Shown: positions 2,923-59,170 of the stretch, piece by piece
Layout: every line of letters begins with the position of its first letter
How positions within the stretch are numbered: position 1 is the first letter of the stretch
From: Escherichia phage HMD-P3
DNA: 64,000 nt
Sequence record: PQ462667.1
Reading direction: 5' to 3' (one strand)
The notes under the pieces: generated by a model
Seen by the model: the letters and a program-made list of their open reading frames with translations, nothing else
Databases searched by the model: none
What the model was told of the DNA's origin: nothing
Made by a program: the position numbers and the translations under genes

Positions 2923-3900
2923 ATGAGGCTTTATAAACCTGATAATGCCACCGTTTTAAAAGGTGCGCTGCGTAACCTGCTGGATGGTAGCAGAACAACC
3001 AGCATTAAGCACTTTGTTAACAAGGCCGAAGATATTCACCAAAATTTTTTTGATGATTTCGACGCCTATGATATGAGTAGTTTTTTGCAACTATATAAGC
3101 AAGGGGCAACGCTTGTTTTATATAATCGGGATAATCACCTGCTCACTAGTCGGGGGCCGGATACTGATTTCATAATCGTAAAAGGCAACACAGTAAAAGC
3201 CTATGATACTGGGGCGGGCTTAGAAGTTTTCACAATAGTAAACTATGAGGCTAATGATAATGATCTTTATGACGTAGAAAATTTTCTTGATTCATTTTGG
3301 CGTTATTTATCAGTTGGCTGGAATCGGTCAATTGGTGACGGGTATCGTCTGGCGGCTGTAATGGCCTTTGATGATGATGGCAATTTTTTGCTACCGTCGG
3401 AAATATACCCCTACATATATGATGGAGATATAGAAAGCGCGGGCTTTTCTTTCTGGAAGGAGAAAGATCAGCCCATTGACAACACGGAAAAACATGCTGT
3501 AAATTCTAGCACTCAAACTACTGAAAACAAAGGAAAAAATGCCATGACCAAGATCTCTAATATCGTTGCCGCCAATAAGTCTGCCGTTGTAAACGCTGCA
3601 AAACTGGAAGCGGGTAAAATTGCACTAACTCAAATCACGAAAGTAGCGGCTAAAAAAGCACCGTTCATGATCAAAGGTTATATCGATACGCCGATTGGTC
3701 GTGTAGTGATCGCTAACCTGCTGAGTGTAGCGGTTGACCAGTACGCCCCGAGTAACCAGAAAGCGAAAGCGGTAGCGGGGGCGGCTATGGAAGCGGCAAT
3801 GTTAGAAATGGTGCAAAGTTTTAACATCGCTGAGATGATCGATGAAATGGTAAAAGGTATCGATATTTCTACTTTTACCGTTAACACCGAAAACGAGTAA
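2923..3900 (+). CDS. hypothetical protein (325 aa)
   Basis: Long ORF with strong SD (gagggagg) 7 nt upstream; followed by a hairpin and T-run. Confidence 0.7.
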   Translation: MRLYKPDNATVLKGALRNLLDGSRTTSIKHFVNKAEDIHQNFFDDFDAYDMSSFLQLYKQGATLVLYNRDNHLLTSRGPDTDFIIVKGNTVKAYDTGAGLEVFTIVNYEANDNDLYDVENFLDSFWRYLSVGWNRSIGDGYRLAAVMAFDDDGNFLLPSEIYPYIYDGDIESAGFSFWKEKDQPIDNTEKHAVNSSTQTTENKGKNAMTKISNIVAANKSAVVNAAKLEAGKIALTQITKVAAKKAPFMIKGYIDTPIGRVVIANLLSVAVDQYAPSNQKAKAVAGAAMEAAMLEMVQSFNIAEMIDEMVKGIDISTFTVNTENE

Positions 3901-47081: not shown

Positions 47082-49412
47082 TTAAATAGTACAACCACCG
47101 GATGCACAACCGGCTGCTTCTTCTCCAGCACCTCCACCATTTGCGGTATTGAAGTTAGCATAATACCAAGTTTTCCACCCATACTTAACAGCAGTCATGA
47201 AATCACGAACTACTACTGGGCCAGGAATGATTTCATTCTCAAACTTGGTGTAGTCATAGTACATATTCGTACTGATAGACTGACTGAAGAATTTCTGCAT
47301 AGTTGCTACCCATTTGATCCACTCGATACGATCTACATCATAAGCCAGTTTATAGCTCATTAACGTTTCCCAATCGGTTGCGCCTGGAGCAATTGCAATT
47401 ACTTTATTTACTGCACTACCTTTAATAGATACAATCTTACGGGGTGGTTCGATAGAGTTAGTAACACCTAACAGAACAGAAGAACTTTCCCCTGGCATCT
47501 GAGCAGTCAGAACAGAGTTACGCATACCATATTTCAGAATATCTGCACGCAGAGACTCCCAATCCATTTCTAGACCTACGGATACCAGTTCATCAACAGT
47601 TTTCTTGTACGTGTCGATTACCAGAATTCCTTTAGATGGTTTAGTACGATCAAACCACTCACATGCACCCTGTTCTTTAGCTAGGCGTACAGAGGCTTTA
47701 TGCAGGAAGTAAGACAGTTTTTCAGCTTCACGGTGAATCCAGTTACGGGCTTCAATACCTTCATAAGCCAGACCTTCTGCCGCCATTGCACCTGCTGCGT
47801 TCATCAGGCCAATACCAACATTACGACGTTTCTTAGCCGTATATTCCATAGTTGGGAACGGATAATCCTGAATTTCAATAATTGTATCAACGAATTTCAG
47901 GAGGATGTAGCAAGTTTTTTCCCACTCAGCCAAAGATTCCATGCGCCCAAGTACAACACCACCTAAGTTACACAGAGATACTTCACCAATATCCTCCGGC
48001 TTCATTTGATCAAGCTGCTCTTTTGTCTTGTACAGCTCTGTAATGTGATGGAACGGGCGTGTAGGCTGAGTAATTTCAACACAAAGGTTTGTCATACGGA
48101 TCGGATCAAGGAAGTTACCGTGACGATTAGATTCCCCGATGTGATGAGCATACATACGTCCTGTTTCCATTCGGATACGTAGCCAAGTATCTAGGATTTC
48201 TTTTGCAGAGACTTTAGGAGCTGCTGGAACTGTTTTTCCTTCGTGGTCGATCTTTGTAAGAGATGCCACACGTTTCTCCGCTGCCACGTAGATTTCTTCA
48301 AATTTAGCCTCGTCATCACTATAAAACGCTTCATGAACTTCTGGAGCATAGAAGTATGACATTAGCGTAATATCTTCGTTTTTCAGATAACGTTTTAACA
48401 AAAGATTGTTGAAGCTCAGAGAGTAATCCATCTTATCGATTTTATTCTCATCTGTAGCACGTTGTTGCTTAACCTGCATCAATTGAATGATTTCAGGGTC
48501 GAAGTATGGATAAGACACTGTAGCAGAACCACCACGAGTTTGCTGAGTATTGGCCTTTACTGAGCGGTCAATGTGTCGATAATATGGCAGTTTTCCGGAA
48601 TGCGGGAATGCCCCATTTCGCACCGGATCAGCAATTGATCGGCTTTCAAGATGATACCCGATTCCCGCTCTGGCTGCGACCATTTTGAAGACGATGTGCT
48701 CGGCGGTGTCGATTGAATCCAACGTGTCAGTGGAATCCACGAGGCAGCAACTAGCAAATCCACGGTCACTAGAGCGCAGACCAACCAGTGGCGGCGTAGG
48801 AACGTTAATTTTGTGGAGCGACATTGCGTTGTAGAGGTCGATTGCATCTAGAATTGTCCAGTTAGGTTGAGATAGCATCGCCATTGCCATACCCATGTAG
48901 GCAAACTGCGGAGTTTCATAAATTTCACCAGTGGCTATGTTACGGCGGGAATACTTATCAAAGAACTGCTTCAGCCCACCACTAGTAAAAAGACGGTCAC
49001 GATCATGGTCGATAACCTGATTCAGAGCTTCAAATTGCTCATCGGTAATCCATGCACTCATGTCTTCCCATGCACCTACGCTAACCATATGGTCATGGAA
49101 GAAACGCAGAGAAGGCGGTTCGAAGGAATCATAAAGGCGTTTACGCATTTGCGCAAGACGTAATTCCTTTGCTGGCACATCATATGCTGGATTATCTTTG
49201 ATAAGACTTTCAGCAGCTTTAATTAATGCATCCATCAGAGTGTCGGAATCTACAACCCCTTTAGGCAGAGTTTTTTGAGCAGCCATAGTAATGGCTGACC
49301 AACTTACATCAACTGTTTTGCAACCATACTCTGCCCAACCATTGATTTTTTCAGGAGCAAAGTCTTCTACAGTACCGTCACGTTTAATTACTTTTTCAAT
49401 GCGATGGCTCAT
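47082..49412 (-). CDS. nrdA: ribonucleotide reductase class Ia large subunit
   Basis: Start moved to MSHRIEKVIKRDG (ATP-cone, RBS aaaggaaag); active-site region NLCVEI...; 776 aa. Confidence 0.9.
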   Translation of the reverse strand: MSHRIEKVIKRDGTVEDFAPEKINGWAEYGCKTVDVSWSAITMAAQKTLPKGVVDSDTLMDALIKAAESLIKDNPAYDVPAKELRLAQMRKRLYDSFEPPSLRFFHDHMVSVGAWEDMSAWITDEQFEALNQVIDHDRDRLFTSGGLKQFFDKYSRRNIATGEIYETPQFAYMGMAMAMLSQPNWTILDAIDLYNAMSLHKINVPTPPLVGLRSSDRGFASCCLVDSTDTLDSIDTAEHIVFKMVAARAGIGYHLESRSIADPVRNGAFPHSGKLPYYRHIDRSVKANTQQTRGGSATVSYPYFDPEIIQLMQVKQQRATDENKIDKMDYSLSFNNLLLKRYLKNEDITLMSYFYAPEVHEAFYSDDEAKFEEIYVAAEKRVASLTKIDHEGKTVPAAPKVSAKEILDTWLRIRMETGRMYAHHIGESNRHGNFLDPIRMTNLCVEITQPTRPFHHITELYKTKEQLDQMKPEDIGEVSLCNLGGVVLGRMESLAEWEKTCYILLKFVDTIIEIQDYPFPTMEYTAKKRRNVGIGLMNAAGAMAAEGLAYEGIEARNWIHREAEKLSYFLHKASVRLAKEQGACEWFDRTKPSKGILVIDTYKKTVDELVSVGLEMDWESLRADILKYGMRNSVLTAQMPGESSSVLLGVTNSIEPPRKIVSIKGSAVNKVIAIAPGATDWETLMSYKLAYDVDRIEWIKWVATMQKFFSQSISTNMYYDYTKFENEIIPGPVVVRDFMTAVKYGWKTWYYANFNTANGGGAGEEAAGCASGGCTI

Positions 49413-49562
49413 TTGGCTTTCCTTTTTATAGTTATCAGGATTTAAGGAATATTCTACTTTATTATCGGTCATTAGGCAAATAAAATTTTCTGATAGAAAA
49501 GGCCCGAGTATTTTCATACCCAGGCCCTATATATTACCAGTCTAGCTTTTTAGCTTATTCAA

Positions 49563-49847
49563 TTACTTTAGCTCTCTAGCTACTTCTTTTAATAGAATAT
49601 CTATGGAGGTGCTCAGCTCGTTATAATTGAATGGTTTATTTGGATTTGAGGTTACAATTTTCCACGCTAGGGTTGTCTTAGGACTTTCTTCCCCTTCCTT
49701 ACGTGTAATCATATTAGCAGCACTCAGTGAAGTACGATGTATTTTAGTTTTACGGCTCAGATGAACGACGTTTCCCATATTACACCTTCCCCATGTCTTT
49801 AAAAATATCATAGAATGCTTTAGACTCAACAGAACGAACGTTATCAA
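49563..49847 (-). CDS. hypothetical protein
   Basis: 94-aa ORF. Confidence 0.45.
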   Translation of the reverse strand: MITFVLLSLKHSMIFLKTWGRCNMGNVVHLSRKTKIHRTSLSAANMITRKEGEESPKTTLAWKIVTSNPNKPFNYNELSTSIDILLKEVARELK

Positions 49848-50541
49848 TCAATTCGATCATTGAGAATGGGGCATTTTCGTATTTCTCATAGACTTCCATA
49901 AGGAGCGCTAGACCTGAGTCACCTTTAATGTCTTTCTGAGCTATATCTCCGCAGATAATTAAACGGCAGTCTTGCCCTACACGAGTTAGGAGACAAATCA
50001 TTGCCTCAACGGAAATATTCTGAGCTTCATCGACAATTACATAGGAGTTGTTGAAAGTTCTGCCACGAGCATGTTCGATAGCCAAAAATTTAATTTTCTG
50101 ACGTTCGACATATCCTTTATATGCATGATCGCCGATGGCCCATTTCATACCATCAGCTATTGGCTCCAACCAAGGCTCTAGCTTTTCCGCTAGATCACCA
50201 GGAAGCATACCAAGAGACTTACCTAGAGGTTCATTAGGACGTACGAGGATCACTTGCTCAATATCTGAGTGAATGTCTACGAGTTCCTGAGCTGCAAGAA
50301 CGGACGGAATAAAGGTTTTACCAGTACCTGGCTCACCTATACCTACAGTCACTGTGTTGTTCTTGATCATATTGATATATGATTTTTGCTCGCGGTTTTT
50401 ACCTACTAGGGATTTAGCAACTGGGTTAGCGTAATCAGTAGAAAAATCAGCCTGAATTACGTTATTCTCATATTTGTTGCCACGCTTTCTTGAACCATTG
50501 CGGTTCTCTCTTTTTTGACGTGCTTTTCCCATAAATAACAC
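49780..50541 (-). CDS. phoH: PhoH-like ATPase
   Basis: Walker A GEPGTGKTF; PhoH-like size and layout. Confidence 0.8.
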   Translation of the reverse strand: MLFMGKARQKRENRNGSRKRGNKYENNVIQADFSTDYANPVAKSLVGKNREQKSYINMIKNNTVTVGIGEPGTGKTFIPSVLAAQELVDIHSDIEQVILVRPNEPLGKSLGMLPGDLAEKLEPWLEPIADGMKWAIGDHAYKGYVERQKIKFLAIEHARGRTFNNSYVIVDEAQNISVEAMICLLTRVGQDCRLIICGDIAQKDIKGDSGLALLMEVYEKYENAPFSMIELIDNVRSVESKAFYDIFKDMGKV

Positions 50542-54436: not shown

Positions 54437-54929
54437 TACTCCAATTATTTTTCTAGACATTGATGGGGTGCTCAATTCGAGCATCTCCCACCATCATGCA
54501 CCTGATAATGAAAAGATTTTCTTTGGAAGTGACTGGGTTTTCAAACCGCTTCTCAAGGCTTTTCAGGACTTTATTCGTCCTTCTCCAATAATGATTGTTG
54601 GAGTATCATCTTGGTTCTCTGTCAGAAATGAGATGGAGAACGTTCAGATTATGACCGGATTAGGTCTTATCGATCGCTTTCTTGGTACAACGGATTTTAC
54701 TGGTGGTGGATTATCTAGGGGTAATTCTGTTCTTCGTTTCGTCGAAAAGCATAAGCTCAAACATTGGTGTGTACTTGATGATGCGGGTGCTATGATGTAT
54801 CAGTATCCAACGGTTATAGTCAACGGTAGAACTGGGATAAATCTTCAAGATTTAAAAGCTGTTAGCTATATGCTAGAATTTAGCCCAGATCTTGAAATGT
54901 GTAAATCCTTACAACAATTTAAGGTGTAA
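54417..54929 (+). CDS. HAD-superfamily phosphatase-like protein
   Basis: N-terminal IIFLDIDGVLN (HAD motif I). Confidence 0.5.
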   Translation: MYQELSNTPIIFLDIDGVLNSSISHHHAPDNEKIFFGSDWVFKPLLKAFQDFIRPSPIMIVGVSSWFSVRNEMENVQIMTGLGLIDRFLGTTDFTGGGLSRGNSVLRFVEKHKLKHWCVLDDAGAMMYQYPTVIVNGRTGINLQDLKAVSYMLEFSPDLEMCKSLQQFKV

Positions 54930-54931
54930 AT

Positions 54932-55360
54932 ATGTTCAATAATGTATTCTCTAAAGAAGCTAACCCAATTTTGGTTAACTTTTGGCGTACTCTCCCGGCT
55001 AGCCTGTATAATGAGGCTATTAACTCCTTGAAAATATGGTGTGAGAATAACGAAATCTCTTTTGCTTTTAAAGATGATGTTGATGAGGCCCCTTGTATTG
55101 GTTTAAGTGTGCAGGTAGAGGAGGGTCTTGAAGAGATTGTCGGCTGGAAAGAGTTAGATGAAATGGGCTTAGTTTTTGCGTTAAACTATAAGCTGTTTAT
55201 GCCTGCTAAGCATCGCCTCGTTGTTAACTATAAAACTAGTGAATCTCCTGGTTTTCAGGTTAATGAACGTTATGGTTGGTCTTACTCACCGGAAGAAGTA
55301 AATGAGGGGATTCAGAAACTTCGACGTTTCGGGTATATAATCCCAGGTTTAACTGCTTAA
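54932..55360 (+). CDS. hypothetical protein, paralog A
   Basis: Shares PCIG...W.EL...GL..ALN and C-terminal G(Y/I)..PGL(T/S) with 55370..55759. Confidence 0.55.
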   Translation: MFNNVFSKEANPILVNFWRTLPASLYNEAINSLKIWCENNEISFAFKDDVDEAPCIGLSVQVEEGLEEIVGWKELDEMGLVFALNYKLFMPAKHRLVVNYKTSESPGFQVNERYGWSYSPEEVNEGIQKLRRFGYIIPGLTA

Positions 55361-55369
55361 GGAGGCAGA

Positions 55370-55759
55370 ATGGAACAAGTATATTGGCGTCAGATTGACC
55401 CTAGTTTGGTGAAACGTGCGGAGAAGCTGCTACAACGTTGGTTGGGGGTAAGACAAGCCTCCTTTACTTTTCCGGAACAGCAAATAGATGACCCCTGCAT
55501 TGGTGTTTTCCTGTCTGGATATGCCGGGGAATGGGAATTGGATTGGAATGAATTGTCTGCTATGGGCTTGATTGTTGCCCTAAACTTCTCTATATTCCAT
55601 CCACGTGGTTTGGCCATATGTCGTGTGCCGGATGATGGTTGTTCGCCCCATCTTTTACAGGTGGAAGATGATATTTGGGAGTACACTCCAGATATTCTCA
55701 AAGAAGCTAAAGAACAATTAAACCGTGTTGGGATCTATGTTCCGGGGTTAAGTGACTAA
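55370..55759 (+). CDS. hypothetical protein, paralog B
   Basis: Tandem paralog of 54932..55360. Confidence 0.55.
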   Translation: MEQVYWRQIDPSLVKRAEKLLQRWLGVRQASFTFPEQQIDDPCIGVFLSGYAGEWELDWNELSAMGLIVALNFSIFHPRGLAICRVPDDGCSPHLLQVEDDIWEYTPDILKEAKEQLNRVGIYVPGLSD

Positions 55760-55785
55760 TGATTTTTATTAGCTGAACTCTGATT

Positions 55786-55812
55786 ACCGAGTCATTTTGG
55801 CTCGGTTTTCTC
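55786..55812 (+). terminator. rho-independent terminator
   Basis: ccgag-tcattttgg-ctcgg followed by ttttc. Confidence 0.6.
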
Positions 55813-55853
55813 TATGCTCAAGGACACTGATAGCACCTTTGGGAAAATTTTAC

Positions 55854-55882
55854 TTGCAGGATGCCCAAAATCTTGATATAAT
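55854..55882 (+). promoter_or_regulatory. T5-type promoter (TTGCAG-N17-TATAAT) heading a 650-nt leader
   Basis: ttgcaggatgcccaaaatcttgatataat. Confidence 0.5.
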
Positions 55883-56515
55883 ATTTATATTGAATTGAGA
55901 GACATTAGTAAAAATTGATTTTGCTAATTTTTCTTGTTTACAATCCGCGATACGGAACAGTTAGGCTGCCCCATTAAGGGTTGTTTTAACTGTTACGTGT
56001 TAGTTTTTAAACAAATAATTAATAGAATACTTAGCGATCTACATCCCGTAGGAACCCTGGTAAGGCCTCGAAGCAACCTAGTGTGAGGTGGTTGTGAAGT
56101 GAGACGGGAAGAGTGAAAAACTCTGAGAAGTGATGACGTAAGGTATACTGCATCTAGTATGAGCTAGTATATGAAGCATTAGGTGAGCAAATCTGGCTTA
56201 GCGGCCATCCTCAAGGATTTGTGCGGTATAGTGAAGCGGCAGTGTAGCGTGAAAGGGGAAGTTGCCACCCCCCTTCAGTATTTGCGATTAATTGTTGAGA
56301 AATTGACAGTAACAGTTGTTCTATTCTTTCTGAATAGTCCTAAAGAAAACTTATTTCATTTCCAACACAGGAGTATTGTTGTGTTCTCAATCCTACAAGG
56401 TCATGCAGGATTTCATCGCGATTTAGCCACAGGCAATTGGCGGGAAGTTAAAGCAGAAAACTATCTTTTTGCTAAAAGATTTTCCTCAAAGCATCCTGAA
56501 GGTAAACCAGCTTCA

Positions 56516-59170
56516 ATGCCCTTCAAGTTTGATGTAATTGATGAAGTTGATCCTCAAACCCTAGTAGAAATGCTCCCTCTTATGAGACGTTTAACGTCTG
56601 ACCCTCATATCGTTGCGGTACGAGGTCGATGTCTTGCACCTAAAAATAATGTGCGACGTAAGAAGGGCAACTTTAATGTATCTAACCCAAGTCATATAAT
56701 TGCAATGGACGTGGATGGTATTGTAGATACAGGTGGTTGTAACAAGTTTGATCTTGTTGGCATGGCTCGACATATTATTAGAATGTTAAATAGTATTAGT
56801 GAGGATATGTTTCCTCTTGATGCAGGGTTTATCGCTCATGCATCGTCTTCGGCTGGGCTAAAACCAGGTATCCGAATGCACTTAATACTAGAATCTAATG
56901 TTAAAGTAACTCAGGGTCAAATCAAATTCTTATTTACATCTATCAACGAAAGTAGTAGACAAAAGTATGGCTTTGATATTGCCGACTTAGCTTATTACTC
57001 TTCCGTACAGCTCCATTATTTTGCAGATCCGTTATTTACTGATGGTATAGTAGATCCGTTTAAAGCGGAGGGTGCTTCACGTCTGGTATTTGTTAAGGGT
57101 TCTAAGGTAAACTTACCCAATAATCTGGTTGATTATGAAACAACTAGAGGTGAGTTTAAAGAGGAGTTTTACTCTTTACTCGACCAAATTAAGGGTAAAA
57201 AAGCTGCCTCTGATAAAGTAGAGGAAACTATCAGCGAACTAGAAGAAGCTGAGGATGGAGTGTACCTACGTATCATACCTAAACTCTATCACAGAGCTTT
57301 AGAGGATGGTGTTGATTTTGCGTGGCTAGAAAAAGAAATCCGTCCAGCCTTATCAGAATATATTGCAACTAAAGATAATAGTCGTAATATTCAAGATTAC
57401 TTTAATAACGGTCGTAAACAGGCTCTGAAAGCGTTTGTTAATAATTCTAAACGCGATATACCTGATGTTTTAAAAGGTATTCCACTTAAAAAGCTAGAAA
57501 CTAATTCTTTAGAAACTGATAACTTCTTGAAATTAAATACTGTACCACCAGAAGGTTATATGACTTTTGTAAAAGCAAGTCTAGGTACAGGTAAAACTAC
57601 GGCGGTTGTGCGTTGGTTAGATTCAGGAGTTATTAAGGGTAATTTCTTAGCAATTACCAATACTCGAGCACTGGTATCTTCAAATGCTAAGAAATTTAGT
57701 GCAGGACAATATGATAAGTCTGTAGATATGCTTAATTTTAAGCGTGGCGCTATTGACCGTATGTCCACAACTATTCACTCTTTGCATAAGTTCAAGAGTT
57801 TTATTGGTCAAATCGATGCAATCTTTATCGATGAATGTGATGCTGTAATGAATGACCTATTATTCGCCCCGGTTGTTAAACAACGTCGTGAATGTATTCA
57901 GGTTCTTCGGGATATTCTTGCAACTGCAAAAATCATTATATTATCTGATGGGGATATTAGTGCTGAAACAATTGAAGCATATGGTTCTTTGATTGAGTTT
58001 GATAAACCGGTTGCATTTTATAATCACCACCGTAAGATGCTGTCAAAAGCTCATGCTTATGAATTCCCTGATGAATCCAGTATTTGGGTTGCACTTCAGA
58101 CTTCTCTAGAGATGGGTGAGAAGTCTATCCTAGTATCTGACTGTGGTCCAGATGAACTGAATGAGAAGGGTATGGCATTGCGTCGTAATACGGGTGCGTT
58201 AGTTAAGGAAATCCACTCAAACTCTACGTCTGATGTAGATATTCGACGTATTCTGGATTACACAACTAATGAGCTAATTGACCAACAAATTGATTGCTTA
58301 TTATGTAGTCCATCCGTAACGAGTGGTGTTGACTTTAACTATTTTGATAACGTATTCGTTATCACTAGAACCTCAAACCAAGCGCCAAACATGCGTTTTC
58401 AAGCAATCAGGCGCGACCGTGGCGCTCAGAACATTTATTATTTTATTGATAAATCTACGAGTGGATTCTCCGCAGGTTCTGAACAATATAACATTGATGA
58501 AGGTTGGCTGGAGTTAGCACAGCAATTATACGCACGTCGTAGGGAGCTGGAATCTAGGAACTATACTAGTACTTTACGTTATTACTTGCTTGATCAGGGT
58601 GCAACTATTGATATTTTCAGTGAAAGCTGGGGAACTATCGAAGGTGCAGGAAAAGAGTATACGGAAGAGCGAATCAAAGCTATTTTGTATTCAACTCCTG
58701 ATTATTGTGCTCCACGCCATGCAGATGCGTATGAGGCTAAACTACTTCTTGTTCGCTATTATCATCTTGAGTCTATTAAAGATGTAACAGTTGAGCACGT
58801 TGAACAATATATCAAGGATAAACCGAATGATCGAGCTGCATTCTTCCATAAGATGCACGAGATGTTCTGGGAAGATATTAAGAAGTGTTCAAATGTCACT
58901 ATCAAACCATTCATAGAAGCTCTGAAAGGTAAGAAGAAAGATTTCTTCCTTAAAACAGGTCAGAGTGCTAACCCAAAATATGCAAGAATGTATCTTGGTA
59001 TGATGGGTATTGGTAAGGATATGAACACTGAAAATATTGTAGACTGGTACAGAACCTATTGTAAAATCGAGTGTATGCCAATCCCGTATAAGTTTATGAC
59101 TGATGAGGAGAAACATATGCATGATGAAGCAATGGCAGAGCTAGGTGCTAGAAATGACAGTGAAGAATAA
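56516..59170 (+). CDS. large P-loop NTPase / helicase-like protein (putative replication initiator)
   Basis: Walker A ASLGTGKTT and Walker B IFIDECD; start moved to MPFKF because the first 111 codons of the track ORF lie in a C-poor leader; the true start is uncertain. Confidence 0.65.
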   Translation: MPFKFDVIDEVDPQTLVEMLPLMRRLTSDPHIVAVRGRCLAPKNNVRRKKGNFNVSNPSHIIAMDVDGIVDTGGCNKFDLVGMARHIIRMLNSISEDMFPLDAGFIAHASSSAGLKPGIRMHLILESNVKVTQGQIKFLFTSINESSRQKYGFDIADLAYYSSVQLHYFADPLFTDGIVDPFKAEGASRLVFVKGSKVNLPNNLVDYETTRGEFKEEFYSLLDQIKGKKAASDKVEETISELEEAEDGVYLRIIPKLYHRALEDGVDFAWLEKEIRPALSEYIATKDNSRNIQDYFNNGRKQALKAFVNNSKRDIPDVLKGIPLKKLETNSLETDNFLKLNTVPPEGYMTFVKASLGTGKTTAVVRWLDSGVIKGNFLAITNTRALVSSNAKKFSAGQYDKSVDMLNFKRGAIDRMSTTIHSLHKFKSFIGQIDAIFIDECDAVMNDLLFAPVVKQRRECIQVLRDILATAKIIILSDGDISAETIEAYGSLIEFDKPVAFYNHHRKMLSKAHAYEFPDESSIWVALQTSLEMGEKSILVSDCGPDELNEKGMALRRNTGALVKEIHSNSTSDVDIRRILDYTTNELIDQQIDCLLCSPSVTSGVDFNYFDNVFVITRTSNQAPNMRFQAIRRDRGAQNIYYFIDKSTSGFSAGSEQYNIDEGWLELAQQLYARRRELESRNYTSTLRYYLLDQGATIDIFSESWGTIEGAGKEYTEERIKAILYSTPDYCAPRHADAYEAKLLLVRYYHLESIKDVTVEHVEQYIKDKPNDRAAFFHKMHEMFWEDIKKCSNVTIKPFIEALKGKKKDFFLKTGQSANPKYARMYLGMMGIGKDMNTENIVDWYRTYCKIECMPIPYKFMTDEEKHMHDEAMAELGARNDSEE

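What the first reader, a model, noticed from the sequence alone, without database searches (positions are those of the whole stretch)
55854..56515. 650-nt C-poor leader upstream of the large Walker A/B NTPase: candidate ncRNA or origin
A T5-type promoter at about 55854 is followed by about 650 nt with no credible ORF. The track ORF 56183..59170 begins with 111 low-complexity codons translated from this region (few C, many GAAG/GTGA repeats). The first plausible start of the NTPase (GTGKTT, IFIDECD) is near 56516, with only a weak RBS. The leader may be a structured regulatory RNA or a cis-acting replication site for the adjacent initiator/helicase-like protein.
Basis: partly seen in the sequence, partly recalled or inferred. 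Interest (0 to 1): 0.55.

Follow-up and report, generated by a model that had tools for sequence, protein, structure and literature searches.

The report
Structured RNA leader before T5 helicase
The gene-free stretch in front of the replication helicase gene of this T5-like phage is a roughly 490-base RNA leader whose multi-helix fold is conserved across the phage family and matches no catalogued RNA family, so it is probably an undescribed regulatory or replication-linked RNA.

Summary
The window comes from a T5-like phage (Demerecviridae). The finding covers the gap between a T5p105 homologue (stop 55759) and the gene for T5 helicase D2, annotated as "replication origin binding protein".

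The promoter is real: -35 at 55854-55859 and -10 at 55877-55882, the homologue of T5 putative early promoter P32. The absence of coding sequence downstream of it is also real.

D2 starts at GTG 56381, 7 nt after a strong AGGAG. It starts neither at 56183 nor near 56516. The leader is therefore about 492 nt (55889-56380).

This leader folds into a conserved multi-helix RNA:
- a 5'-terminal hairpin;
- a 30-41-bp closing helix, P3, whose arms lie about 265 nt apart;
- a nested long-range helix, P4;
- an invariant GGCU[UAGC]GGCC hairpin;
- several further hairpins.

These helices persist through near-complete sequence turnover in ten lineages, with many compensatory changes. About 19% of P3 pairs are G·U, so the folded strand is the + strand, most simply as RNA.

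No Rfam family matches, and I found no paper describing the element. Conserved iterons, an SD-sequestering platform and a GC-skew switch were each tested and not found.

Function is inferred only. A cis-acting role in D2 expression is most likely. An excised stand-alone RNA and an origin or primer RNA remain open.

The parts
55786..55811 (+). Intrinsic terminator of the upstream operon: hairpin ACCGAGUCA/UGGCUCGGU followed by UUUUCU.
   Evidence: The terminator scan finds it. T5 records annotate it as a rho-independent terminator. The hairpin is kept in Klebsiella and Pectobacterium phages with different stem sequences.
55854..55882 (+). Sigma-70 T5-type early promoter. The -35 TTGCAG is at 55854-55859, the spacer is 17 nt and the -10 TATAAT is at 55877-55882. 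The inferred transcription start is about 55889.
   Evidence: Read from the sequence. T5 records annotate a promoter here, one as 'T5P32'. CTTGC-N17-TATAAT is present at this place in 31 of the 34 sequences checked. The transcription start itself is inferred, not mapped.
55897..55935 (+). P1, a 5'-terminal hairpin: GAGAGACAUUAGUAAAA / UUUUGCUAAUUUUUCUU. It has 16 bp and a 1x1 internal loop.
   Evidence: Every one of the nine lineages tested has a 16-21-bp hairpin starting 7-9 nt after the inferred start, built from different sequences. Energies give z of -2.5 to -5.6 against shuffles.
55940..55984 (+). P2 stem-loop carrying the conserved motif GAACAGUUAGGCUGC. Its tip hairpin is CAGU[UAG]GCUG.
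   Evidence: The motif is conserved in Markadamsvirinae, Klebsiella and Pectobacterium phages. In L062 the tip reads CGGU[UAG]GCCG, a compensatory A·U to G·C change. The block 55883-55997 is 97-100% identical between phages whose flanking genes are 75-94% identical.
55987..56020 (+). P3 5' arm, half of the long closing helix.
   Evidence: See the P3 3' arm entry.
56286..56318 (+). P3 3' arm. It pairs with 55987-56020. With the P3b extension the helix has 30-41 bp and encloses about 265 nt.
   Evidence: - The exact seed AACTGTTAC/GTAACAGTT appears as inverted repeat I12.
- RNAduplex at the same anchor-relative position gives -27 to -39 kcal/mol in 12 lineage variants, with z from -2.1 to -8.6.
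- The same arms folded as the opposite strand give only -8 to -26 kcal/mol.
- Of 366 pairs in ten lineages, 68 are G·U.
- A sequence-only alignment of the arms gives 23 consensus pairs. Eight show compensatory changes and almost none break.
56025..56031 (+). P3b 5' arm, GAAUACU. It pairs with 56277-56283 (AGUAUUU) and extends P3 inward.
   Evidence: MFE folds place equivalent 5-10-bp helices at the same offsets in L048, L049, L062 and L043.
56034..56044 (+). P4 5' arm: GCG-AU-CUACAU, with a 2-nt bulge.
   Evidence: See the P4 3' arm entry.
56242..56250 (+). P4 3' arm, GUGUAG-CGU. This long-range helix is nested inside P3, with arms about 200 nt apart.
   Evidence: - The alignment is anchored only on the invariant CU and AG dinucleotides, in 10 lineages.
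- 91% of cells pair, against 67% in shuffles and 17-50% when the partner is slid.
- Seven of 9 pairs show compensatory changes.
- The covariation score is 0.70 against 0.22, with 0 of 500 shuffles as high.
- Two double compensatory changes occur even within type A.
56074..56094 (+). P5 hairpin, CAACC ... GGUUG.
   Evidence: Equivalent hairpins are CUAUC/GAUAG in L062, CAAUC/GAUUG in L048 and CGGC/GCCG in L049. It was not tested formally.
56110..56132 (+). Hairpin AGAGU-GAAAA-ACUCU followed by the conserved single-stranded motif GAGAAGUG.
   Evidence: A hairpin plus (G/A)AGAAGUG is present in type A, L062, both Pectobacterium lineages and Klebsiella phages, with different stems. Within type A the pair changes from A·U to G·C on both sides.
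56187..56222 (+). Island stem-loop. The outer helix is GCAAAUCU/GGAUUUGU. The inner hairpin is GGCU[UAGC]GGCC (56195-56206). An asymmetric internal loop lies on the 3' side.
   Evidence: - CUUAGCGG is invariant in every enterobacterial-host lineage examined, including Proteus and Providencia phages.
- The closing U·G pair is invariant, 18 of 18. The inner stem shows GC to AU and GC to CG changes.
- The outer helix pairs in 89% of cells, with 7 of 8 pairs compensatory.
- Model R1, built without type B, finds type B at the homologous place with E of 0.002-0.013.
56251..56276 (+). Hairpin GAAAGGGG-[AAGUUGCCAC]-CCCCCUUC. Together with P3b and P4 it forms a three-way junction.
   Evidence: A hairpin sits at the same offset in nine lineage variants with different stems: GUGG/CCAC, GGAGGA/UCUUCC and AUAUGA/UCAUAU. 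Within type A, G56256 and C56272 change together to U and A (register re-read by me).
56321..56337 (+). P6, a small hairpin CUAUUC-UUUCU-GAAUAG just 3' of P3.
   Evidence: MFE folds show it. Klebsiella phages have CUAUC/GAUAG and L048 has CUUUCC/GGAAAG. No U-tract follows, so it is not a terminator.
56183..56380 (+). Spurious 5' extension of the mechanical ORF 56183..59170. It is non-coding and is part of the leader.
   Evidence: Relatives have an in-frame stop 3-129 nt upstream of the start, including a type-A relative about 96% identical across the leader (20 substitutions in 492 nt).
56369..56383 (+). Shine-Dalgarno AGGAG (56369-56373) and the true start codon GTG (56381-56383) of D2.
56381..59170 (+). 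D2 helicase gene, annotated 'replication origin binding protein' (929 aa). Residues 394-533 form a UL9-like SF2 helicase core.
   Evidence: Pfam PF02399, E 3e-7. PDB herpesvirus origin-binding proteins match at E 2e-5. PHROG 3712 matches over the full length. T5 D2 was characterised as a bipolar helicase (PMC3632103).

Best explanation
**What it is**
The stretch 55889-56380 is the transcribed 5' leader of the D2 helicase mRNA. Host RNA polymerase reads it from the conserved early promoter at 55854-55882. It works as RNA on the + strand.

**The fold**
- P1 is a hairpin at the 5' end.
- P2 is a stem-loop that is almost invariant in sequence.
- P3 is a helix of about 35 bp (30-41 bp across lineages). 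It closes a domain of about 265 nt.
- Inside that domain are the nested long-range helix P4, the invariant GGCU[UAGC]GGCC stem-loop and at least three more hairpins.

Shown: the promoter, the absence of coding sequence, the true start codon, the helices and their covariation, the strand, the absence of any Rfam match, and restriction to T5-like phages, once per genome and always upstream of D2.

**How it most likely works (inferred)**
The domain probably acts in cis on D2 expression, setting the stability, processing or translatability of the message.
- P1 is the kind of 5' stem-loop that protects an mRNA end.
- The low-C, high-G, tightly folded leader would resist Rho-dependent termination across 490 untranslated bases.
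- P3 is long enough to be an RNase III substrate.
- The conserved loops are candidate binding sites for a phage or host protein, possibly D2 itself.
For: **Promoter and transcription**
- The promoter is conserved and annotated.
- No terminator lies between the promoter and D2.
- The P1 hairpin keeps a fixed position after the inferred start in all nine lineages tested.

**Helices**
- P3: z of -2.1 to -8.6 in 12 lineage variants, with the + strand far more stable than the - strand. 68 of 366 pairs are G·U. Eight of 23 pairs are compensatory on a sequence-only alignment.
- P4: 91% paired against 67%, 7 of 9 pairs compensatory, 0 of 500 shuffles as high.
- Island stem-loop plus the GAAAGGGG...CCCCCUUC hairpin (56251-56276): 85% paired against 65%, 14 of 18 pairs compensatory.
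- A covariance model built from type-A-like lineages finds type B at the homologous site.
- Within type A, 8 of 20 substitutions form 4 compensatory doubles. By my arithmetic about 0.07 doubly hit pairs are expected by chance.

**Conservation and distribution**
- The P1-P2 block is 97-100% identical where neighbouring genes are 75-94% identical.
- Leader length is 493-625 nt in the 31 of 34 sequences where the promoter pattern was found.
- The two-motif pattern occurs once in each of 31 T5-like contigs.
- In 596 Gb of bacterial genomes it occurs only at chance level: 4 matches against about 8 expected by my arithmetic, and none is confirmed by the model.
Against: - No expression platform was found. 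Pairing between the SD region and upstream sequence is no better than shuffled sequence in 8 of 9 lineages. Predicted SD accessibility varies from 0.01 to 0.98 between lineages.
- In Proteus phage Stubb a perfect consensus promoter lies 36 nt before the D2 ATG, about 240 nt after the RNA domain. There D2 could be expressed without the leader, which argues against an obligatory cis role.
- The size and complexity exceed what simple translational control needs.
- No transcript, processing or binding data were available.
- Whole-leader MFE z-scores are modest (-2.5) and no better than those of the reverse strand (-3.4).
Confidence: 0.5

Rival explanations
1. The leader is the precursor of a stand-alone RNA. 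P3 would be a processing stalk, like the stems that flank 16S and 23S rRNA or the RNase III sites in T7 early mRNA. Cleavage would release the domain of roughly 300 nt as a stable RNA that acts in trans or as part of a ribonucleoprotein. It would also leave a trimmed D2 mRNA.
For: - P3 has 30-41 bp in all ten lineages, much longer than needed just to close a domain.
- The domain has multiple junctions and loops of invariant sequence.
- In Stubb the domain has its own 12/12 promoter and D2 has a second one.
- Aeromonas and Vibrio relatives keep gene-free gaps of 630-1590 nt before the gene.
Against: - No terminator or defined 3' end follows the domain.
- It always lies on the D2 strand, directly upstream.
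- The conserved loops have no complementary targets elsewhere in the 64-kb window.
- RNase III cleavage was not tested.
Confidence: 0.2
2. The element takes part in replication initiation through its RNA. The strongly transcribed, folded leader would act as a pre-primer or R-loop former, as ColE1 RNA II or the T4 oriF and oriG transcripts do. Alternatively it would recruit the D2 helicase encoded immediately downstream, which would mark an origin.
For: - It lies next to the gene for a UL9-like origin-binding helicase throughout the family.
- It has a strong conserved promoter.
- At about 500 nt it is similar in size to RNA II (from general knowledge).
- T5 replicates from multiple internal origins that have not been mapped to sequence (PMC3632103).
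Against: - No conserved iterons or tandem repeats were found.
- No antisense promoter of the RNA I type was detected.
- The cumulative GC-skew minimum is at about 48-50 kb, not here.
- Selection acts on intramolecular pairing, not on RNA-DNA hybrid potential.
Confidence: 0.15
3. The structure forms in single-stranded + strand DNA. It would be a strand-specific signal such as a primosome-assembly site or a single-strand origin, exposed when the region is unwound.
For: Strand-specific helices containing G·T are also typical of ssDNA signals. The site is next to a helicase gene.
Against: - The folded region spans about 430 nt, far larger than known ssi or sso elements (from general knowledge).
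- 19% G·U pairs would be weak G·T pairs in DNA.
- The first hairpin keeps a fixed distance from a conserved promoter, even where an HNH insertion replaced that promoter.
Confidence: 0.05
4. There is no discrete function: the region is a non-coding spacer, a decayed gene, or the real N-terminus of D2 starting at 56183.
For: A mechanical ORF runs through 56183-56380. Some GenBank records annotate longer D2 proteins or small ORFs here.
Against: - The in-frame extension and the small ORFs are not conserved.
- Covariation and an ultra-conserved 5' block show selection on the nucleotide sequence.
Confidence: 0.02

Closest known systems
RNase III processing stems: those flanking 16S and 23S rRNA, the T7 early mRNA sites and the lambda N leader
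   Same: A long, imperfect helix of 30-41 bp is formed by distant segments of one transcript. It lies upstream of a gene in a strongly transcribed phage early unit, and it encloses a folded RNA as the rRNA stalks do.
   Different: Cleavage was not shown and no sequence relationship exists. The T7 and lambda sites are local hairpins, not stems that enclose about 265 nt of conserved structure.
Large structured RNAs of unknown function linked to phages: GOLLD and ROOL
   Same: It is several hundred nucleotides long, has many covarying helices, is phage-borne, and its biochemical role is unknown.
   Different: Their Rfam models give no match. This element is a 5' leader fixed to one particular gene, D2. 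It is confined to one phage family and is not next to tRNA genes.
ColE1 RNA II pre-primer
   Same: It is a folded transcript of about 500 nt from a constitutive-type promoter, in a replication context.
   Different: No antisense RNA I promoter is present. No origin has been mapped downstream, a protein gene follows immediately, and there is no sequence similarity.
Autoregulated phage replication-gene leaders: the T4 gene 32 and gene 43 translational operators
   Same: It lies in the 5' untranslated region of a replication gene, with structures of conserved sequence that could bind the encoded DNA-binding protein.
   Different: Those operators span tens of nucleotides and overlap the ribosome-binding site. 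Here the conserved structure is about 430 nt long and ends about 45 nt before the SD. No conserved SD occlusion was found.
Herpesvirus oriS and oriL with the UL9 origin-binding protein
   Same: The neighbouring protein shares the UL9 helicase core. Long inverted repeats lie in a promoter-containing intergenic region beside replication genes.
   Different: Herpesvirus origins are DNA palindromes with UL9 boxes. Here the arms tolerate G·U pairs and so evolve as RNA, and no repeated box is conserved. A UL9-box-like 8-mer occurs only in the T5-type variant, not in this window (the box sequence is from memory).

Membership tests
Any Rfam 15 family, including GOLLD, ROOL, OLE, HEARO, riboswitches, introns and ribozymes | A match to the family covariance model at or near the gathering score | tested here: not met
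   A permissive E-value scan of window 54500-58000 gave only a chance C/D-box match (17 bits against 36 required, E 0.8). A scan of ten related loci gave nothing in any leader.
Cis-regulatory structured mRNA leader | Lies between the promoter and the start codon on the sense strand, with no intervening terminator | tested here: met
   The promoter is at 55854-55882 and the start at 56381. The only terminator-like sites are upstream of the promoter.
Cis-regulatory structured mRNA leader | Conserved secondary structure supported by covariation | tested here: met
Cis-regulatory structured mRNA leader | An expression platform: alternative pairing that hides the SD or start codon, or forms a terminator | tested here: not met
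   SD-to-upstream duplex energies give p of 0.19-0.95 against shuffles in 8 of 9 lineages. There is no terminator.
Cis-regulatory structured mRNA leader | A measurable effect on expression of the downstream gene | not testable with these tools
   This needs reporter fusions or phage mutants.
Initiator-linked DNA replication origin | Conserved iterons or initiator-binding repeats | tested here: not met
   No repeat family beyond short two-copy matches was found. There are no tandem repeats in the leader. The GTGA and GAAG enrichment is specific to this lineage.
Initiator-linked DNA replication origin | Strand-symmetric DNA-level conservation, or a skew switch at the site | tested here: not met
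   The - strand helices are much weaker. The cumulative GC-skew minimum is at about 48-50 kb.
Initiator-linked DNA replication origin | Initiation of DNA synthesis mapped to the site | not testable with these tools
   This needs marker-frequency analysis or 2D gels.
RNase III processing stalk | A double-stranded RNA helix of about two turns or more | tested here: met
   P3 has 30-41 predicted pairs in ten lineages.
RNase III processing stalk | RNase III-dependent cleavage in vivo or in vitro | not testable with these tools
   This needs RNA end mapping in wild-type and rnc hosts.
ColE1-type primer RNA | An antisense regulator (RNA I) promoter on the opposite strand within the pre-primer | tested here: not met
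   All promoter-like sites in 55300-56800 are on the + strand.

The most novel reading that the evidence does not exclude
The leader is a previously unrecognised class of large structured RNA, with a core of about 430 nt. It would work together with the UL9-like D2 helicase in starting T5 DNA replication, for example as an origin-specifying or helicase-loading RNA, or as a processed ribonucleoprotein component. An analogous element would sit upstream of the same gene throughout the Demerecviridae, including the Vibrio and Aeromonas phages that keep long gene-free gaps there.
Probability: 0.15. Interest if true: 0.85.

Novelty: new variant of a known kind. Interest (0 to 1): 0.6.

Why it matters
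T5 is a classical model phage, and neither its replication origins nor the control of its replication genes have been defined at sequence level. A large, conserved RNA fold sitting directly in front of the origin-binding-type helicase gene gives a concrete, mutable element with which to test how D2 expression or replication initiation is controlled.

For RNA biology it adds a candidate to the short list of bacterial or phage RNAs above 400 nt with many covarying helices. It lies in an experimentally tractable system, and hundreds of natural sequence variants are available: 535 phage records match the leader region.

On the practical side, many deposited T5-like genomes start this gene at the wrong codon or annotate spurious ORFs inside the leader.

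Tried and rejected
1. **Rfam.** Permissive scans of the window region and of ten related loci found no family.
2. **D2 starting at 56183 or 56516.** Rejected on annotation, alignment of start codons and the PHROG profile.
3. **Small ORFs in the leader.** They are not conserved.
4. **Iterons or tandem repeats as origin marks.** None are conserved. The GTGA and GAAG enrichment is specific to this lineage.
5. **Anti-SD platform.** GAAUAGUCCU against AGGAGUAUU looked promising, but pairing is no better than shuffled sequence in 8 of 9 lineages.
6. **Second promoter-like site at 55915-55944.** It lies inside P1 and P2 and is not conserved outside Markadamsvirinae. I regard it as incidental.
7. **Trans targets.** The conserved loops have no complementary sites elsewhere in the window.
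8. **Model R1 on distant relatives.** It found nothing in the Vibrio and Aeromonas loci, in the Stubb locus L050 (despite its CUUAGCGG motif) or elsewhere in the window. Priunavirus matches are weak, at E 0.3-0.7.
9. **Two-motif pattern in bacterial genomes.** Four matches, against about 8 expected by chance, and none is confirmed by R1.
10. **GC skew.** The switch is at about 48-50 kb, not at the leader.
11. **Whole-leader MFE z-scores.** They do not tell the strands apart. The helix-level G·U analysis was used instead.
12. **Plain MAFFT of whole leaders across subfamilies.** It misregisters the helices, so anchored sub-alignments were used.
13. **Literature.** Seven searches found no description of this leader. 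The 1976 origin-mapping paper is not held.
14. **Not attempted.** I did not predict the fold of the D2 N-terminal 390 residues. Some records call it a primase, and Pfam finds nothing there.
Full report
**Identity of the window and the locus.** The 901 bases around the finding match 523 phage records at 80-99% identity. Nearly all are T5-like phages of Salmonella, Escherichia and Klebsiella. The window also carries 22 tRNA genes on the minus strand, as T5 does.

The finding lies between a homologue of T5p105/T5.107 (stop at 55759) and the gene annotated 'replication origin binding protein'. This is the T5 helicase characterised as D2 by Wong et al. (PMC3632103), although the DT57C record labels the gene D1. 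The protein has a herpesvirus UL9-like helicase core. Pfam PF02399 matches residues 394-533 at E 3e-7. Solved UL9-type proteins match at E 2e-5.

**Checking the observation.** The promoter is real.
- The -35 TTGCAG is at 55854-55859, the spacer is 17 nt and the -10 TATAAT is at 55877-55882. The generic scanner missed it because the -35 matches only 3 of 6 consensus positions.
- The three T5 records annotate a promoter exactly there, one as 'putative early promoter T5P32'.
- CTTGC-N17-TATAAT is present at the homologous place in 31 of the 34 sequences checked. The other three carry an HNH-gene insertion with its own promoter.
- An intrinsic terminator for the upstream genes precedes it at 55786-55811.

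T5, DT57C, Lindwurm and Eps7 annotate the start at the equivalent of GTG 56381. AGGAG lies 7 nt upstream. In every lineage an ATG, GTG or TTG followed by F-S/T-I-L-x-G-H aligns there. The full-length PHROG profile begins at that residue.

The extension back to 56183 is not conserved. Relatives have an in-frame stop 3-129 nt upstream. One of them is a type-A relative with only 20 substitutions across the leader. The leader is therefore about 492 nt (55889-56380).

It is mildly C-poor at 15.9%, the 9th percentile of the window, and its centre is G-rich at 31.6%. GAAG and GTGA are enriched there, but only in this lineage. No small ORF is conserved.

**The conservation pattern.** An alignment of T5, Eps7, oselot, DT57C, Lindwurm and others shows three zones.
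- A 5' block (55883-55997) is 97-100% identical between phages whose flanking genes are 75-94% identical.
- A central block of about 310 nt exists in two forms. Type A includes this window, DT57C and SP76. Type B includes T5 and Eps7. The two have the same length but align at only about 58%.
- A 3' block is again well conserved.

The two central types are distributed mosaically across the genera Tequintavirus and Epseptimavirus. An island, GGCTTAGCGGCC (56195-56206), is shared by both.

More distant phages of Klebsiella (Sugarlandvirus), Pectobacterium (DU_PP_V, My1), Providencia and Proteus, and one metagenomic lineage, have D2 proteins only 58-75% identical. They keep the promoter or an equivalent one. 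They also keep a leader of 493-625 nt, a few short motifs and constant spacing between those motifs.

**Secondary structure.** Independent folds of eight lineages give the same helices at the same positions relative to the invariant CUUAGCGG.

*P1* is a hairpin of 16-21 bp that starts 7-9 nt after the inferred transcription start. It usually has a 1x1 internal loop. It is present in all nine lineages tested, with z from -2.5 to -5.6.

*P3* pairs 55987-56020 with 56286-56318 and continues inward as P3b.
- At the same offsets, RNAduplex gives -27 to -39 kcal/mol in 12 lineage variants, with z from -2.1 to -8.6.
- The arms share little sequence between lineages.
- The same arms read as the opposite strand give only -8 to -26 kcal/mol.
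- 68 of 366 pairs are G·U. These would be A·C mismatches on the other strand.
- On a sequence-only alignment of the arms from 12 Markadamsvirinae variants, RNAalifold finds 23 pairs. Eight show compensatory changes and almost none break.

*P4* is a nested long-range helix: GCG-AU-CUACAU (56034-56044) pairs with GUGUAG-CGU (56242-56250). I aligned ten lineages using only the invariant CU and AG dinucleotides as anchors.
- 91% of cells pair, against 67% in shuffles and 17-50% when the partner is slid.
- Seven of 9 pairs carry compensatory changes.
- The covariation score is 0.70 against 0.22, and no shuffle out of 500 reaches it.

*The island stem-loop* (56187-56222) has an invariant U·G-closed tetraloop hairpin. 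The hairpin shows GC to AU and GC to CG changes. Its outer helix differs in sequence in nine lineages.

*A covariance model* of the island plus the next hairpin was built only from type-A-like lineages.
- It finds type B at the homologous place with E of 0.002-0.013, and Priunavirus weakly at E 0.3-0.7.
- It finds nothing elsewhere in the window or in the Vibrio and Aeromonas loci.
- On the resulting alignment 85% of cells pair, against 65% in shuffles, and 14 of 18 pairs have compensatory changes. That alignment is fitted to the model, so it leans towards the structure.

*Microevolution* gives the same answer. The window and a close type-A relative differ by 20 substitutions over 492 nt. Eight of these form four compensatory doubles: two in P4, one in the hairpin before GAGAAGUG, and one in the hairpin at 56251-56276 once its C-run register is read correctly. 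By my arithmetic, about 0.07 doubly hit pairs are expected by chance among the 45 pairs modelled.

**What this establishes.** The leader is a large, multi-helix structure selected on the + strand. Three facts point to RNA as the functional form. A conserved promoter lies immediately upstream. The promoter-to-P1 distance is fixed, and is kept even where an HNH endonuclease gene with its own promoter replaced the original one. Many pairs are G·U. A + strand ssDNA structure cannot be excluded formally, but it fits these facts poorly.

**Is it known?** No Rfam 15 family matches the window region or ten related loci. The T5 records annotate only a terminator and a promoter in the gap. Seven full-text searches found nothing about this leader.

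The pair of motifs GAACAGTNNGGCTGC ... CTTAGCGG occurs once in each of 31 T5-like contigs in IMG/VR, always at this locus. In 596 Gb of bacterial genomes it occurs four times, against about eight expected by chance. The model confirms none of them.

**Function: tested ideas.**
- DNA origin. No iterons or tandem repeats are conserved. All promoter-like sites are on the + strand, so there is no RNA I-type antisense unit. The cumulative GC-skew minimum is at about 48-50 kb, where gene orientation flips, not at the leader.
- Translational switch. No conserved SD-sequestering partner exists.
- Trans target. Nothing in the window is complementary to the conserved loops.
- Obligatory cis role. In Proteus phage Stubb the domain has its own 12/12 promoter. 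A second 12/12 promoter lies 36 nt before the D2 ATG, about 240 nt after P3, with no terminator between them.
- Family-wide feature. Vibrio and Aeromonas relatives keep gene-free gaps of 630-1590 nt before the gene. In the two Vibrio genera compared, the first 108 nt or so of the leader is 98% identical and the rest has diverged. Aeromonas phage TS3 has a predicted 25-bp long-range helix. This is suggestive only, because homology was not detected.

**Best reading.** I commit to a conserved structured RNA acting at the RNA level, most likely in cis on D2 expression through stability, processing or translatability.
- The 5' hairpin, the low-C and high-G folded leader, and the P3 helix of about 35 bp (30-41 bp across lineages) fit known principles of 5'-end protection, Rho avoidance and RNase III processing. 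These links are inferences from general knowledge, not tests.
- The main rivals are an excised stand-alone RNA with P3 as its processing stalk, and an RNA-mediated role in replication initiation with D2.
- My confidence that the structure is real and RNA-level is about 0.9. My confidence in the cis-regulatory role is about 0.4-0.5.

**Verdict.** The promoter, the non-coding leader and the spurious ORF extension are right. The start codon, the leader length and the 'C-poor' description need correcting. The 'origin' half has no direct support. The element is of real interest to phage and RNA biologists, but its function is open.

Noticed in passing
L007 (S132) 1343-1795 and L009 (SP76) 1343-1795; also L016, L025, L033: An HNH homing-endonuclease gene is inserted between the T5p105 homologue and the leader. 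It replaces the original terminator and promoter with its own promoter. The distance from the -10 element to hairpin P1 is kept to within 2 nt.
   Followed up: partly
Window 55927/55928; L001 (DT57C) about 3730-3826; also SP3, L021, L035, L042: Some relatives carry an insertion of about 97 nt between the 3' arm of P1 and P2, flanked by a TTTTTCTT duplication. The RNA evidently tolerates an extra element there.
   Followed up: no
L006 (oselot) 1359-1389: Three tandem copies of ATTTTGCTA lie within the P1 3' arm. The record annotates them as a repeat_region.
   Followed up: no
Window 54932-55360 and 55370-55759: The two genes just upstream are tandem paralogues. Both match phrog_2502 of unknown function, at E of about 1e-61. 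Several GenBank records label the homologue 'tail tube protein', which looks like an annotation error.
   Followed up: partly
Window about 48000-50000: The cumulative GC-skew minimum coincides with the switch from minus-strand to plus-strand genes. If skew reflects replication at all here, this is a better candidate for a divergence point than the D2 leader.
   Followed up: no
L050 (Proteus phage Stubb) 705-733 and 1435-1464: Two perfect 12/12 sigma-70 consensus promoters are present. One drives the structured RNA domain. The other lies 36 nt before the D2 ATG, about 240 nt downstream of the domain.
   Followed up: partly
L051 (pVp-1) 1105-1212 and L052 (Chester) 1013-1120; L054 (Aeromonas TS3) 814-854 / 1439-1463: Vibrio phages of two genera share a promoter and a leader start of about 108 nt that is 98% identical, before a diverged region of about 500 nt. 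The Aeromonas phage has a 1.6-kb gene-free gap with a predicted 25-bp long-range helix. These may be analogous RNAs.
   Followed up: partly
L002 (PS3-1), L003 (I14) and L006 (oselot): Deposited annotations start the helicase gene too far upstream, or call ORFs of 33-50 aa inside the leader. Some label the protein 'DNA primase C' or 'DEAD-like helicase'.
   Followed up: partly
L032 (T5) and L036: 79 nt upstream of the CUUAGCGG motif, near locus position 1235; absent from the window: The type-B leader contains GUGCGAAC. This is the complement of the core of the herpesvirus UL9 recognition box CGTTCGCAC, a sequence I recalled from memory. It is not found in type A or in other lineages, so it is probably coincidence.
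   Followed up: partly
Window 56100-56164: There is a weak Rfam match to the archaeal C/D-box sRNA sR17 (17.4 bits against a gathering score of 36, E 0.8). It reflects the local GUGAUGA and CUGA words and is a chance match.
   Followed up: yes
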